A DNA stretch of 47,862 nucleotides from Candidatus Woesebacteria bacterium (lineage in GTDB: Bacteria > Patescibacteriota > Microgenomatia > UBA1400 > UBA12028). The translations under genes were made by a program, and so were the position numbers. Where the stretch lies: assembly GCA_040006915.1 (NCBI GenBank), contig JBDTWD010000002.1, forward strand, positions 108,613-156,474. Reading direction: 5' to 3'. The notes below the pieces were generated by a model that saw only the letters and a list, made by a program, of their open reading frames with translations, ran no database searches and was not told the origin of the DNA. Of the stretch, positions 45,235 to 47,768 are shown one piece after another (within the stretch, counting starts at the first letter, position 1; each line of letters starts with the position of its first letter).

Positions 45235-47004
45235 TCACTCAGTATGACCAGTGGGATCGCTAGGAGGTAGTCCAATAGGAGCAATAGGAGGCGTTACTCC
45301 TTGATCAACTTGGAGGAGATTTTTCCCAGTCATCTGGGTCGGAACCGGAAGATTCATGAAGTTTAAAATTGTTGGCGCTACATCCTCTAGTGTTCCGGCT
45401 TTGAGAAGATCTTTTTTCCCTCTCATGGCATTATTAATGACGACTAACGGCACTGGATTATTACTATGTTCGGTATTCATGGATCCGTCGTGGGTCGTAT
45501 AGTAGAAAGTGCTCGGATCAAAAGTAAGCAATTCCTCGGCATTGCCATGGTCGGCAGTAATAAAGATTGTGCCATCCAACTTTAAAACTGCATTTTTGAT
45601 TTCCTCAAGGCCAGTATCCACTGCTTCACAAGCTTTGATGGTTGCCTGTAGTTTGCCGCTATGCGCCACCATATCTGGATTGGCGATATTCATGACAATA
45701 AAACTATATTTATTTTGTGCTAACGCCCACTTTAACTCACGCACTAGAGGAAACAAAGACATCTCGGGTTTGTGATCATAAGTTCCGACCTTAGGAGAAG
45801 GAATAATTTTAACGTCTTCCCCCGGAAACTTTTCTGAGCGCAATCCGTCCATATAGTAGGTGACCATTCGTTCTTTCTCACTTTCGGCTAAATGGAATTG
45901 AGCTAATCCATGATCAGCAATCACTTTGGTCATGCCTTCTTCAACTGATTCTGTGGGAAAGGCGATGGCGCTCACCGGCACATCTTTTTGATACTCGGTC
46001 ATGGTCACAAAGAATAAGTTTTTCGGAACTTTTTTGCGAGCAAATGTCGGTGGCGGCTCCTGCCCTTTTAATCCCAAACTTCCTCCAACTTCCGTTTTTA
46101 AAAATGCTCCTGTTTCAAAGTCAGGAGCTTTAATCACAAACGCTTTGGTTAATTCTCTGGGACGATCGACGCGGAAGTTAAAGAAAATACACGCATCCCC
46201 ATCGTCAACTGTTAGCGTCTTCCCACCCTCGTCAGTAATAACGGTCGGGACTACGAATTCATCTGTTTTCCCAACTTTATATGAATCACTCACTGCCTGT
46301 ACAGCAGATGTTGCGGTCGGTCCGATCGCAGAAGTAATGGCTTCGTAGGTAGCTTGAATTCGATCCCAGCGATTGTCTCGATCCAAAGCAAAGTAGCGAC
46401 CTGCAACACTAGCAATTCGACCGATTTTCATTTCCTTGAGTTTGTATTCAATGTTAGAGAGCACATTAACTCCATCATGAGGCGGAGCATCGCGACCATC
46501 GGTGAACAAATGTAGCACCACGTTGTTTAACTTATTGCGTTTACACAGTTCCAACAACGCATACAAATGCTCAGTAGAAGAGTGCACATTCCCTGACCCG
46601 ATAAGTCCAATCAAATTCAACTTACTTTTATTGACGATCACATGATCGACAGCCGACAAAAACGCATTGTTTCTAAAAAAAGTCTCTTCAGTAATCGAAC
46701 GATTGATACGTAAGAGTGACTCAAAAATGACGCGCCCGACACCCATGGTTAAATGCCCTACTTCTGAATTTCCAACTTCGTTGGCAGGTAGCCCGACGGC
46801 TTCTCCTGAAGCAATGAGCTTGGTATTAGGATACTCAGCCAGGATTCGATTCCAATTACCTAACTTAGCCGCAGTCAGCGCATTTCCATGGCTTTCTGGC
46901 GCAATTCCCCAGCCATCGATAGAAATGAGAATCACTGGTTTTATTCCTCCTGGAACAGGATGAATAGCCGGATCAAAGAAACTGGAAATGATCGGAATTC
47001 TCAT
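45235..47004 (-). CDS. gpmI: 2,3-bisphosphoglycerate-independent phosphoglycerate mutase
   Basis: IDGWG, GNSEVGH (catalytic Ser), [34 protein letters not shown]. Confidence 0.95.
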
Positions 47005-47768
47005 AGGACCAAAATAAAGTAGGACAGGAATAAGCCACCCGCAAAGATCACTACCATCAGGATCAAGTTAATAGTCACTGTTGTCTGGATCTGAAGTCTG
47101 GCTAATGGATTACGACCAATGGCTTCGACACCACTCTTAGCCAGTCTTCCAAAATGGACAAATCCTAAAATAAAGGAGGCGATGGTAACAAAAGCCGCCA
47201 AGATATAACGAAGTGCTGCGAGTGGAGTCAACACAGGAGCTGCGAGACCTTCACGTAAAGCCTCAATTAAGTTGCTGCGTACATCGACAAAGACTGTGGT
47301 TGGATGAATGCCTAGCGAGACAGCAATAATTCCCTCTTCATCTTTGTTCTGCGGTGCGTAGTCTTCCAAAGCCATACCTAGCACATATCCATTGCGACTT
47401 GCCTTCATCGCTATTCCCGGCTTCGAAGAACTCGTAACTAAATCACCTGCCTTTATATCTCCTCCTGAAGCTACGACACGAACATCTGCTTCTCCATTGG
47501 TTAAAATTAAATGCTGGTTATCTTGTGGCGCACTTTCAAAGGCTGCGGCAGGCAGCACACTGACCACGCCAAAGATCGCACTGCTGTAACTATCCTTACA
47601 CATCGAATACGATCCTCTTCCGGTGCAGATCACACTTCCATCAGTTGGCTGTTCACCTGCAATCACAGCCGGAATCGCAGTCCCTGTTTGTCCTGATTGT
47701 GCATGCGCAAGACGAACTGCTCCAAACAGAAAAAAGCTTGTGAGTAAAAGAAAGAGTGGCGTACGCAT
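47001..47768 (-). CDS. Exported beta domain fused to a C-terminal ATP-synthase subunit-c-like hairpin
   Basis: Signal peptide (MRTPLFLLL...AHA); [21 protein letters not shown]...LGMALED domain; [28 protein letters not shown] 9 nt before ATG 47768. Confidence 0.7.

What the first reader, a model, noticed from the sequence alone, without database searches (positions are those of the whole stretch)
47001..47768. Subunit-c-like hairpin without the ion-binding Glu, carrying an exported beta domain
Seen: the C-terminus [31 protein letters not shown] matches the c-subunit polar loop (R-N/Q-P). The position of the essential Glu/Asp is Val, the second helix has no acidic residue, and the GxGxGxG zipper of helix 1 is absent. 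The N-terminal ~150 aa after a signal peptide ([16 protein letters not shown]....G.ALE) resembles, from memory, the small beta domain of phage decoration or tail-fibre-associated proteins. Inference: the F1-binding face is kept while ion transport is lost, giving a rotor ring that displays an extracellular crown.
Basis: partly seen in the sequence, partly recalled or inferred. Interest (0 to 1): 0.75.

Follow-up and report, generated by a model that had tools for sequence, protein, structure and literature searches.

The report
Carboxylate-free ATPase c-subunit with surface domain
An uncultivated ultra-small bacterium has replaced the ion-carrying ring subunit of its ATP synthase with a version that cannot carry ions and instead bears a domain outside the cell, so this "ATP synthase" probably does a different job.

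Summary
The gene at 47001-47768 (minus strand) encodes 255 aa from the ATG (the ORF runs on to a GTG at 47789). It has a signal peptide, a ~135-residue exported domain with two invariant cysteines, and a C-terminal two-helix hairpin. A profile of 78 hairpins finds almost only F-type c subunits in the PDB (14 of 15 hits, best E 8.5e-5). Pfam ATP-synt_C matches 28 of 78 hairpins. The R-N-P loop is invariant in 266 of 266 family members, and none has an acidic residue at the c-subunit Glu/Asp position. The gene heads the F1 operon: 65 of 68 loci with enough flank have atpA just downstream. No subunit a and no ordinary subunit c lies in the window or within 8 kb in 80 related loci. Whole genomes could not be checked.

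My reading is a c-subunit descendant that anchors a hydrolysis-only F1 and passes its motion to the cell surface. The closest known system is the mycoplasma "F1-like X0" ATPases. I found no description in print. I rate it a new variant of a known kind, of high interest.

The parts
47001..47768 (-). Gene for the fused c-like protein ('X262'): 255 aa from the ATG at 47768, with the stop at 47001-47003. The ORF is open up to a GTG at 47789. Residue numbers in this report count from that GTG (262 aa).
   Evidence: P0002 is 255 aa and 100% identical; the Atlas record starts at residue 8
47700..47768 (-). Sec-type signal peptide (residues 8-30, ending A-H-A before the invariant Q31).
   Evidence: Sequence. 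A hydrophobic N-terminus followed by an invariant Q is present in all 35 aligned members. The cleavage site is inferred; it was not predicted with a dedicated program.
47295..47699 (-). Exported beta-rich domain (residues 31-165) with invariant C55 and C64 and the conserved stretches G-D-x-x-T-S-S and N-G-Y-V-L-G-x-A-L-E.
   Evidence: Weak family matches: Pfam Phage_cement_2 in 12 of 35 and XM1_gp53 in 8 of 35; phrog_673 in 23 of 78, best 1.5e-6. Atlas structural neighbours carry Peptidase_G2 or PTL_trimer, TM 0.75-0.77 by query. The same domain occurs in giant neighbouring ORFs.
47226..47294 (-). Linker (residues 166-188), with the conserved R-S-N-L-x-x-A-L-R-E-G-L stretch and P185.
47145..47225 (-). 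Helix 1 of the hairpin (residues 189-215). P189, R194 and Y195 are invariant in 78 of 78. F206, G209, F210, F213 and G214 are conserved. There is no GxGxGxG motif.
47091..47144 (-). Cytoplasmic polar loop (residues 216-233) with E222 and R226-N227-P228 (47106-47114), the counterpart of the c-subunit E-x-x-x-R-Q/N-P loop.
   Evidence: 78 of 78; R-N-P in 266 of 266; aligned to the c-subunit loop
47004..47090 (-). Helix 2 (residues 234-262). V246 (47052-47054) stands at the place of the ion-binding Glu/Asp. The conserved stripe is I234, V238, N241, T/M245, I248, G252, A256, I259.
45235..47004 (-). Cofactor-independent phosphoglycerate mutase gene. Its start overlaps the X262 stop by 4 nt.
   Evidence: Pfam iPGM_N 1.3e-70. 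It lies between X262 and the atp genes in 38 of 65 linked loci.
44567..45214 (-). b-like peripheral-stalk subunit (215 aa): one N-terminal hydrophobic helix, then a long charged helix.
   Evidence: Assigned by position and architecture. There is no Pfam match, and NCBIfam subunit B gives only E 0.01.
44143..44601 (-). Short delta subunit (152 aa).
   Evidence: Pfam OSCP 7e-6, C-terminal domain only; NCBIfam 7.4e-5
42677..44146 (-). F1 alpha
   Evidence: Pfam ATP-synt_ab 9.6e-70. The N-terminus is 13-16 residues shorter than in three ordinary alphas.
41809..42687 (-). F1 gamma
   Evidence: Pfam ATP-synt 3.3e-28
40434..41816 (-). F1 beta, with the Walker A motif, the G-E-R-x-R-E motif and the Walker B aspartate all present.
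   Evidence: Pfam 7e-59; sequence read
40167..40430 (-). F1 epsilon (87 aa, beta-sandwich only).
   Evidence: Pfam ATP-synt_DE_N 1e-9

Best explanation
The gene encodes the membrane subunit of a remodelled F-type ATPase found in Microgenomates-type bacteria of the candidate phyla radiation (CPR). It descends from subunit c. After a signal peptide comes a ~135-residue exported domain with two invariant cysteines (probably disulphide-bonded), then a linker, then the c-type helical hairpin, whose polar loop (E222, R226-N227-P228) faces the cytoplasm. I propose that it oligomerises side by side as c does and docks gamma/epsilon of the co-encoded F1 through that loop. It cannot carry H+ or Na+, because it has no membrane carboxylate and the operon has no subunit a gene. 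The enzyme would then run only as an ATPase. It would burn glycolytic ATP (a phosphoglycerate mutase gene sits in the same operon) and deliver the motion of the central stalk and ring to the exported domains. That makes it an 'F1-like X0' type machine powering a process at the cell surface, not an ion gradient.

Shown here: homology of the hairpin to c; family-wide loss of the carboxylate and of the Gly motif; the domain architecture; linkage to the F1 operon at the position of atpE; absence of atpB and of an ordinary atpE nearby.

Inferred: the topology, the ring, docking to F1, hydrolysis-only operation, and an output at the surface.

My odds: c-derived, ion-blind partner of F1, about 0.85; ring plus mechanical output to the surface, about 0.35.
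For: Homology. The profile of 78 hairpins (A2) searched against PDB sequences gave 15 hits at E<=10. Fourteen are F-type c subunits; the best is 2wie_A at 8.5e-5, and seven are below 0.01. Pfam ATP-synt_C is the family matched most often: 28 of 78 hairpins at E<=1, best 2.5e-5, and 7 of 35 full-length members. hhalign of A2 against six annotated c subunits gave E 2e-4, in register with the loop. The Atlas model of the hairpin has TM 0.85 (by query) to a cluster that is 100% PF00137. JGI's pipeline names 5 of the 120 listed relatives 'subunit c/K'.

Loss of ion binding. Position 246 is never acidic in 266 of 266 members. Helix-2 model positions 58-80 hold no acidic residue at all.

No conserved outer face. 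Conservation in helix 2 has helical periodicity with its peak at 100 degrees. There is one conserved stripe, and position 246 lies off it with a high entropy of 2.5 bits, as expected for a lipid-facing residue.

The face that binds F1 in ordinary c subunits is kept. R-N-P is present in 266 of 266, and E222 in 78 of 78 locus-derived hairpins (245 of 266 in the wider set).

Context. Of 68 loci with at least 4.5 kb downstream, 65 have atpA within 4.5 kb on the same strand. In 27 of these X262 stands where atpE normally stands, directly before the b/delta-sized gap. The gap is 820-1753 nt in 65 of the 68 loci that have atpA downstream.

No second c-like ORF. None was found among 10,299 stop-to-stop ORFs of the window plus 80 loci, 1.05 Mb in all.

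No subunit a. None of 26 multi-helix ORFs matches Pfam ATP-synt_A. A six-sequence subunit a HMM has its best E at 1.5. None of the 36 window ORFs scanned matches.

The F1 looks active. Beta has its Walker A, G-E-R-x-R-E and Walker B residues.

Precedent. [quoted passage not shown]
Against: Only the window and +/-8 kb around 80 homologues were examined. A subunit a gene and an ordinary atpE could lie elsewhere in these genomes. Most loci keep genes of b and delta size, and in known enzymes the b/delta stalk holds subunit a. The window protein alone does not reach any Pfam threshold for ATP-synt_C. The best single-sequence PDB hit has E 0.49, and the hhalign probability is only 47% over 34 columns. 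No ring, no contact with gamma/epsilon and no crown was modelled. Position 241 in helix 2 is always polar (N191, H55, S10, Q7, Y3 of 266), which this explanation does not need. Two divergent fragments carry Glu at that position (P0306, P0313). Three of 68 loci with enough flank lack atp genes downstream (L031, L042, L053).
Confidence: 0.45

Rival explanations
1. The enzyme is still an ion-translocating ATP synthase. Subunit a, and perhaps an ordinary c, are encoded elsewhere. X262 is then either a minority member of a mixed ring, like the carboxylate-poor c1 of Acetobacterium woodii, capping the outer side of the ring. Or it binds the ion in an unconventional way through N/H241, T245 and Y212.
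For: Genes of b and delta size are kept in 65 of the 68 loci that have atpA downstream. Position 241 is polar in 266 of 266 members and lies on the conserved stripe. Two divergent fragments have Glu at 241. A c-type subunit that lacks a carboxylate in one hairpin exists in a solved ring: 4bem_J, 'F1FO ATPase c1 subunit', appeared among the PDB hits. That it lacks a carboxylate is recalled, not taken from a call. Whole genomes were not searched.
Against: No atpB and no ordinary atpE lie within 8 kb of X262 in 80 loci or in the 47.9-kb window. X262 sits exactly at the atpE position. Asn, the residue at 241 in 191 of 266 members, cannot be protonated and released. No known rotary ATPase works without a carboxylate (established knowledge, recalled). 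The face of helix 2 that carries position 246 is variable and hydrophobic.
Confidence: 0.2
2. X262 is a passive membrane tether or assembly platform. It holds F1 at the membrane through the c-type loop, but rotation drives nothing outside. The exported domain merely fixes the protein to the wall or surface layer, or the whole complex is a slowly decaying relic.
For: The peripheral stalk looks reduced. The alpha N-terminus is 13-16 residues shorter than in three ordinary alphas. Delta has 152 aa, with only its C-terminal domain matched. In L057, L068 and L073 atpA follows X262 directly, with no b or delta gene between them. No stator partner in the membrane was found.
Against: A relic should not keep R-N-P in 266 of 266 members and E222 in 245 of 266. 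Nor should it keep intact catalytic motifs in beta, or a conserved exported domain with 45% mean column identity across 78 species-level genomes. The same gene order is kept in 65 of 68 loci.
Confidence: 0.2
3. X262 has nothing to do physically with F1. It is a surface protein whose membrane hairpin resembles subunit c by convergence, and the gene adjacency has another cause, for example co-regulation with glycolysis through the phosphoglycerate mutase gene.
For: The similarity statistics are modest (best E 8.5e-5; hhalign probability 47%). In 38 of 65 linked loci the immediate neighbour is the mutase gene, not an atp gene.
Against: Fourteen of the 15 PDB hits are c subunits, and the alignment runs without gaps from the loop to the C-terminus. 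In 27 of 65 linked loci no mutase gene intervenes. The invariant loop is the very motif that binds F1 in c (established knowledge, recalled).
Confidence: 0.08

Closest known systems
F-type ATP synthase subunit c (AtpE, Pfam PF00137)
   Same: Both have a two-helix hairpin with a cytoplasmic E-x-x-x-R-Q/N-P loop. The alignment from the loop to the C-terminus has no gaps. The gene sits at the atpE position, before b, delta, alpha, gamma, beta and epsilon.
   Different: No Glu/Asp in helix 2, 0 of 266. No GxGxGxG motif in helix 1. A signal peptide and a ~135-residue exported domain are fused to the N-terminus. No atpB gene lies beside it.
Mycoplasma 'F1-like X0' ATPases, Types 2 and 3 (PMC3369863, passages read; PMC12994834, abstract and section 2.1 read)
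   Same: F1-type alpha, beta, gamma and epsilon genes are clustered with membrane proteins that are not an ordinary Fo. [quoted passage not shown] The alpha N-terminal helix is missing there and shortened here. The Type 3 machine serves a cell-surface function. In Mycoplasma mobile a glycolytic enzyme (PGK) is part of the F1-like chain (abstract of 10.1101/2024.06.11.597861, seen in the search listing); here a glycolytic gene lies in the operon.
   Different: X262 is far smaller (255 aa against about 87 kDa), and its hairpin is demonstrably c-derived. Whether Protein 5's hairpin is c-derived too was not tested, because I had no sequence of it. No 12-helix 'Protein 1' is conserved next to X262. 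Genes of b and delta size are kept in most loci. In mycoplasmas an ordinary F1Fo coexists with the F1-like cluster; here that is unknown.
Acetobacterium woodii c1 subunit (PDB 4bem_J)
   Same: A member of the c family that has lost the ion-binding carboxylate in part of the protein yet still sits in a rotor ring. It appears among the PDB hits of the hairpin profile (E 0.12).
   Different: c1 is a duplicated hairpin that keeps one carboxylate, is mixed with ordinary c2/c3, and has no exported domain (recalled, not from a call).
Phage cement/decoration proteins (Pfam PF09956, PF23982) and the first part of the Peptidase_G2 auto-chaperone domain of tail-spike-like proteins (PF11962)
   Same: There are weak but recurrent matches to the exported domain: 12 of 35 and 8 of 35 members in Pfam and 23 of 78 to phrog_673. 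Atlas structural neighbours carry Peptidase_G2. A 517-aa neighbour ORF in L054 holds a Peptidase_G2 match above the Pfam cut-off (28.6 bits against 25; residues 183-251). That match runs into the stretch similar to X262 (residues 237-334 of that ORF).
   Different: No member reaches a Pfam cut-off. The domain profile finds nothing in PDB sequences, and tblastn against 50,697 phage records finds nothing. Here the domain is tethered to a membrane hairpin, not to a capsid or a fibre.

Membership tests
F-type ATP synthase subunit c (PF00137) | Significant sequence-profile similarity to the family | tested here: met
   Met at the family level: the A2 profile against the PDB gives 14 c subunits among 15 hits, best E 8.5e-5. 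Pfam matches 28 of 78 hairpins at E<=1, best 2.5e-5. hhalign gives E 2e-4, probability 47%. The window protein on its own gives no Pfam match and a PDB E of 0.49.
F-type ATP synthase subunit c (PF00137) | Helical hairpin with a conserved polar loop R-Q/N-P | tested here: met
   R-N-P is present in 266 of 266 members. Two hydrophobic helices flank it. The cytoplasmic side of the loop is inferred from the signal peptide and from the positive charges R215, K218, R226 and R231.
F-type ATP synthase subunit c (PF00137) | Essential Glu/Asp in the middle of helix 2 (18 residues after the loop Pro) | tested here: not met
   Position 246 is I, V, L, A, F, G, T or M, with 0 of 266 acidic and 0 of 78 acidic. 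The register was confirmed.
F-type ATP synthase subunit c (PF00137) | Glycine-rich GxGxGxG packing motif in helix 1 | tested here: not met
   Only G209 and G214 are conserved. F206, F210 and F213 occupy the region.
F-type ATP synthase subunit c (PF00137) | Works against a subunit a (atpB), normally encoded beside it | tested here: not met
   No ATP-synt_A match among 36 window ORFs, 25 upstream ORFs of ten loci or 26 multi-helix ORFs of the loci. A subunit a HMM has its best E at 1.5 among 10,299 ORFs. The rest of each genome was not searched.
F-type ATP synthase subunit c (PF00137) | Assembles into a homo-oligomeric ring that binds gamma/epsilon | not testable with these tools
Mycoplasma F1-like X0 ATPase | F1-type alpha/beta/gamma/epsilon genes clustered with a secreted protein anchored by two C-terminal helices | tested here: met
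   The architecture of X262 and the operon agree with the description in PMC12994834, section 2.1. This is a likeness of architecture only; homology to Protein 5 was not tested.
Mycoplasma F1-like X0 ATPase | No peripheral stalk (no b, no delta; alpha lacks its N-terminal helix) | tested here: inconclusive
   The window has a b-like and a delta gene. In L057, L068 and L073 atpA follows X262 directly. The alpha N-terminus is 13-16 residues shorter than in three ordinary alphas.
Mycoplasma F1-like X0 ATPase | 12-helix 'Protein 1' in the cluster | tested here: not met
   No conserved multi-helix ORF lies next to X262 in the 80 loci.
Phage cement / decoration domain (PF09956) | Score above the Pfam gathering cut-off | tested here: not met
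   13.7 bits against a cut-off of 24 for the window protein. The best E among 35 members is 0.01.

The most novel reading that the evidence does not exclude
A whole class of CPR bacteria has turned the F-type ATP synthase into an ATP-driven rotary motor that carries torque across the membrane. F1 spins a ring of ion-blind c-like hairpins, and their exported domains form a rotating crown on the cell surface. The crown may engage the giant surface proteins that carry the same domain and are encoded next door. If so, the 'ATP synthase' that these respiration-less organisms puzzlingly keep is not an ion pump or synthase in this clade but a surface machine for attachment, motility or handling of host contact.
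Probability: 0.15. Interest if true: 0.95.

Novelty: new variant of a known kind. Interest (0 to 1): 0.78.

Why it matters
[quoted passage not shown] Metabolic surveys score 'F-type ATPase' simply as present or by how complete the subunit set is (PMC8672522, PMC8407418, PMC13707452, passages read).

In the Microgenomates-type lineages found here, the operon's membrane subunit cannot bind an ion and no subunit a gene accompanies it. At least 202 species-level genomes encode a relative. For these lineages, reading the operon as an ATP synthase or a proton pump is probably wrong, and energy budgets built on that reading need revision.

The protein is also a natural experiment on subunit c. The F1-binding loop is frozen while the ion site and the Gly packing motif are gone. 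It would extend the 'F1-like X0' idea, F1 heads re-used to power surface processes, from mycoplasmas to a second, very large group of reduced bacteria.

Tried and rejected
No model of my own, no Foldseek search and no oligomer test exist. The only structural evidence is the Atlas's own model.

Stand-alone hairpins. A search of shorter proteins with the single hairpin gave 2 fragments. The same search with the 78-sequence profile gave 49 hits. Most come from contigs under about 3 kb, and most of the 15 sequences I read start inside the fused protein, so I take them for fragments and see no clear free-standing relative. The 73-aa Atlas cluster called 'proteolipid-like' is therefore probably made of such fragments and says nothing about an ordinary c.

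Exported domain. Its profile against PDB sequences gave no meaningful hit. tblastn against phage genomes gave no match. NCBIfam gave only a GroES hit at E 0.047.

Subunit a. I looked for it downstream of atpC (the 230-aa ORF at 39215-39907 has no hydrophobic helix), among all unassigned window ORFs and in the loci. None was found.

Signals. The promoter and terminator scans of 39900-47862 gave counts at or below the shuffled expectation.

Literature. None returned a paper describing a fused or carboxylate-free c subunit in CPR. The preprint 10.64898/2026.10.01.756066 (passages read) examines 'unusual genomic neighborhoods' of CPR beta subunits and notes short delta subunits.

Rejected idea. 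I considered that N241 is a shifted ion site. It lies 5 residues, about 140 degrees around the helix, from the canonical position and is Asn in 191 of 266 members.
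Full report
WHAT IS THERE. The minus strand carries an ORF at 47001-47789 (262 codons from a GTG). The ATG at 47768 gives a 255-aa protein. Residue numbers below count from the GTG. The protein reads, in order:
- a hydrophobic signal peptide ending A-H-A before Q31;
- a ~135-residue domain with two cysteines (C55, C64);
- a linker;
- two hydrophobic helices (189-215 and 234-262) joined by the loop [11 protein letters not shown].
I checked the codons of R226-N227-P228 (47106-47114) and of V246 (47052-47054) by eye.

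THE FAMILY. The protein is not an orphan.
- The word-indexed search found 346 relatives at E<=1e-3. The best 120 are nearly all 240-285 aa long.
- The exhaustive search of cluster representatives found 3299 at E<=1e-3, 739 at E<=1e-10 and 183 at E<=1e-30.
- In one-genome-per-species contigs, 202 places encode a relative, of which 80 were kept as loci L001-L080.
- Record titles that name a lineage say Woesebacteria, Amesbacteria, Levybacteria, Microgenomates or Patescibacteria group.
- In an alignment of 35 members the invariant positions include Q31, C55, C64, G125, G138, P189, R194, Y195, E222, R226, N227, P228, L229 and A230.

IS THE HAIRPIN A SUBUNIT c? The window protein alone is not convincing. 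Pfam gives no ATP-synt_C match, and phmmer against PDB sequences puts the chloroplast c subunit first but at E 0.49. Profiles settle the matter.
- I cut the last 82 residues from the window and from 77 loci to make alignment A2. The other 3 of the 80 loci had no match reaching query residue 250, so they were left out.
- Searched against 177,635 distinct PDB sequences, A2 returned 15 hits at E<=10. Fourteen are F-type c subunits. The best is 8.5e-5, and seven are below 0.01.
- The alignment has no gaps from the loop to the C-terminus.
- Scanned one by one against Pfam, 28 of the 78 hairpins match ATP-synt_C at E<=1 (best 2.5e-5). The next family, LtrA, matches 15.
- A profile-profile comparison with six annotated c subunits taken from plasmid records gave E 2e-4 and probability 47% over 34 columns centred on the loop.
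- The Atlas's own model of the hairpin superposes on a cluster that is 100% PF00137, with TM 0.85 by query.
- JGI's pipeline already of the 120 listed relatives, and 13 of the 49 short fragments, 'F0F1-type ATP synthase membrane subunit c / subunit K'.
I conclude that the hairpin is a distant but real descendant of subunit c.

WHAT IT HAS LOST. In every alignment the ion-binding Glu/Asp of c, which lies 18 residues after the loop Pro, falls on position 246.
- Across the 78 hairpins this position is I36, A15, L8, V6, G6, M4, F3.
- I aligned all 267 stored proteins to the hairpin model, and 266 aligned. None of the 266 is acidic at 246. Helix-2 model positions 58-80 hold no acidic residue at all, while R-N-P is present in 266 of 266.
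- Helix 1 has no GxGxGxG motif. The conserved residues there are S/A205, F206, G209, F210, Y212, F213 and G214.
- Conservation along helix 2 is periodic, with its peak at 100 degrees per residue (0.40, against at most 0.22 at other angles). The conserved stripe is I234, V238, N241, T/M245, I248, G252, A256, I259. Position 246 lies beside it with an entropy of 2.5 bits.
- So the helix has one packing face and an otherwise variable hydrophobic surface. I see no conserved outward site of the kind that meets subunit a.
- One feature stays unexplained. Position 241 is always polar (N191, H55, S10, Q7, Y3 of 266), and two divergent fragments have Glu there (P0306, P0313).

THE EXPORTED DOMAIN.
- Pfam Phage_cement_2 matches 12 of 35 members (best E 0.01). 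The window protein scores 13.7 bits against a cut-off of 24. XM1_gp53_minor_capsid matches 8 of 35 (best 6.2e-4).
- PHROG 673 ('head scaffolding protein') matches 23 of 78 domains (best 1.5e-6), and phrog_6427 matches 15 of 78.
- The Atlas model's structural neighbours include proteins carrying Peptidase_G2 or PTL_trimer, at TM 0.75-0.77 by query but 0.20-0.38 by target.
- The domain profile finds nothing meaningful in PDB sequences, and tblastn finds nothing in 50,697 phage records.
- The same domain sits near the C-terminus of giant ORFs (790-2444 aa) encoded divergently just upstream of X262 in L009, L012, L022, L034, L045, L054 and L075 (E 1e-11 to 1e-19).
- Three of these giant ORFs begin with a MerR-type helix-turn-helix. 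A 517-aa ORF of this set, in L054, has a Peptidase_G2 match above the Pfam cut-off (residues 183-251) that runs into the shared stretch (residues 237-334).
- The signal peptide and the two invariant cysteines place the domain outside the cell. The positive charges of the loop (R215, K218, R226, R231) place the loop inside. This is the topology of subunit c. It is an inference; no topology program was run.

CONTEXT. In the window the gene's stop overlaps by 4 nt the start of a phosphoglycerate mutase gene (45235-47004). Then follow a b-like gene, a short delta, alpha, gamma, beta and a short epsilon (Pfam; NCBIfam). The b-like gene has no Pfam match, and NCBIfam subunit B gives E 0.01.
- Of the 80 loci, 68 have at least 4.5 kb downstream of X262. 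Of these, 65 have atpA within 4.5 kb on the same strand: 38 with the mutase gene between, 27 without.
- The exceptions are L031 (X262 frameshifted), L042 and L053.
- Counting all loci regardless of flank, 68 have atpA downstream. In 65 of those the gap before atpA is 820-1753 nt (median 1138), room for b and delta. BLAST at 1e-5 recognises b or delta in 36 of the 68.
- In L057, L068 and L073 atpA follows X262 directly (-3 to 169 nt), with no b or delta gene between them.
X262 therefore stands where atpE stands in ordinary operons.

WHAT IS MISSING NEARBY.
- I ran the hairpin HMM over all 10,299 stop-to-stop ORFs of at least 40 aa from the window and the 80 loci (1.05 Mb). It finds only X262 itself.
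- An HMM of six ordinary c subunits finds nothing better than weak hits on X262 (best E 0.046).
- For subunit a there is no Pfam ATP-synt_A match among 36 window ORFs, 25 ORFs upstream of X262 in ten loci, or 26 ORFs of the loci with three or more hydrophobic segments. Twenty of those 26 match no family at all.
- A six-sequence subunit a HMM has its best E at 1.5.
- The limit is plain: the rest of each genome was not seen.

THE F1 PART. Beta keeps its Walker A motif, the G-E-R-x-R-E motif and the Walker B aspartate. Alpha keeps its P-loop. The top of the peripheral stalk looks reduced.
- Delta has 152 aa, and only its C-terminal domain matches OSCP.
- In a nine-sequence alignment the alphas of this lineage start 13-16 residues later than those of Listeria, Tsukamurella and Sulfitobacter.
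- Epsilon is the beta-sandwich alone, 87 aa.

HOW IT MOST LIKELY WORKS. I propose that X262 is the membrane base of a hydrolysis-only F-type ATPase. It packs side by side through the conserved faces of its two helices and holds gamma/epsilon with the frozen E...R-N-P loop. It binds no ion and meets no subunit a. It couples ATP hydrolysis in the cytoplasm to its exported domains. The mutase gene in the operon would fit a local supply of glycolytic ATP. The steps shown and the steps inferred are listed under Best explanation. I give about 0.85 to 'c-derived, ion-blind partner of F1', about 0.35 to 'ring with mechanical output at the surface', and 0.45 overall. The rivals are:
- an ordinary Fo encoded elsewhere, with X262 as an extra ring member or an unconventional ion site (0.2);
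- a passive tether or relic (0.2);
- no physical link to F1 (0.08).

COMPARISON WITH WHAT IS KNOWN. As a member of the c family it passes the tests of profile similarity and loop. It fails those of carboxylate, Gly motif and adjacent subunit a, so I do not file it as a functional subunit c. The closest known system is the mycoplasma F1-like X0 ATPase.
- The Type 3 machine is required for the MIB-MIP antibody-cleavage system at the cell surface (PMC12994834, abstract).
- The Mycoplasma mobile gliding motor combines an F1-like ATPase with the glycolytic enzyme PGK (abstract of 10.1101/2024.06.11.597861, seen in the listing).
- X262 shares the architecture of that two-helix protein. It differs in size, in keeping b- and delta-like genes in most loci, in lacking the 12-helix partner, and in being visibly derived from c.

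NOVELTY. Ten full-text search calls (listed under Tried and rejected) found no paper describing a fused or carboxylate-free c subunit in CPR bacteria. Surveys I read score the 'F-type ATPase' as present or by completeness. A review calls its presence surprising. One complete Microgenomates genome of another lineage is reported to lack membrane ATP synthases altogether (PMC7143001, passage). Automatic annotation has noticed the c-likeness. Its missing ion site, its fusion and its a-less operon seem not to have been discussed. I rate it a new variant of a known kind.

WHAT COULD NOT BE DONE. I have no structure prediction, no Foldseek search and no oligomer or complex test. No whole-genome census for atpB and atpE was possible.

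Noticed in passing
window 45235-47004 (-): A cofactor-independent phosphoglycerate mutase gene sits inside the atp operon, overlapping the X262 stop by 4 nt. The same insertion is found in 38 of 65 linked loci. It recalls the glycolytic enzyme PGK in the Mycoplasma mobile F1-like ATPase chain.
   Followed up: partly
L009:752-7438 (-), L045:2502-7949 (-), L034:1562-7732 (-), L012:6-7337 (-), L022:4-4116 (-), L054:176-1729 (-), L075:2577-4949 (-): Giant ORFs (up to 2444 aa) are encoded divergently just upstream of X262. They carry the same beta domain near the C-terminus. Three of them (L009, L045, L034) start with a MerR-type helix-turn-helix. One shorter ORF of the set (L054, 517 aa) has a Peptidase_G2 match above the Pfam cut-off. 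They may be partners of the exported domain.
   Followed up: partly
L057:2711-4941, L068:1706-3945, L073:1472-3886: In three loci atpA follows X262 directly (-3 to 169 nt), with no b or delta gene between them. No such genes were recognised elsewhere in these loci.
   Followed up: partly
window 42677-44146 (alpha), 44143-44601 (delta), 40167-40430 (epsilon): The stalk parts look reduced. The alpha N-terminus is 13-16 residues shorter than in three ordinary alphas. Delta has 152 aa with only its C-terminal domain matched, and epsilon has 87 aa, the beta-sandwich only.
   Followed up: partly
proteins P0306 and P0313: These divergent hairpin fragments have Glu at position 241 (Asn or His elsewhere), Asn at 245 and Gln at 222. 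They could belong to a sub-branch with a membrane carboxylate at a shifted place. Both come from short contigs, so their N-termini are uncertain.
   Followed up: no
window 27873-31113: A 3.2-kb stretch with 35% G+C (the window has 42%) and no ORF above 80 aa. It has no Rfam match of note, no tandem repeats, and only short scattered repeats. This is unusual for a densely coded small genome.
   Followed up: partly
window 19293-24353 (-), 24363-25004 (-), 24986-27187 (-): A 1686-aa ORF and a 213-aa ORF have no Pfam match. They lie next to a 733-aa AAA-type ATPase.
   Followed up: no
window 36383-38527 (+): A 714-aa protein has TrwB/TraG-type coupling-protein and HerA-like domains. No other conjugation genes were recognised nearby.
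   Followed up: no
window 12664-13485 (+): The ribosomal protein L1 gene encodes 273 aa, but the Pfam L1 match starts only at residue 158, at profile position 83 of 198. The N-terminal half is either very divergent or an extension.
   Followed up: no
L031:2767-3533, L031:5707-7695, L042:8106-10079: X262 is split by a frameshift in L031. In L031 and L042 a ~660-aa ORF of unknown kind follows the mutase gene where the atp genes are expected.
   Followed up: no
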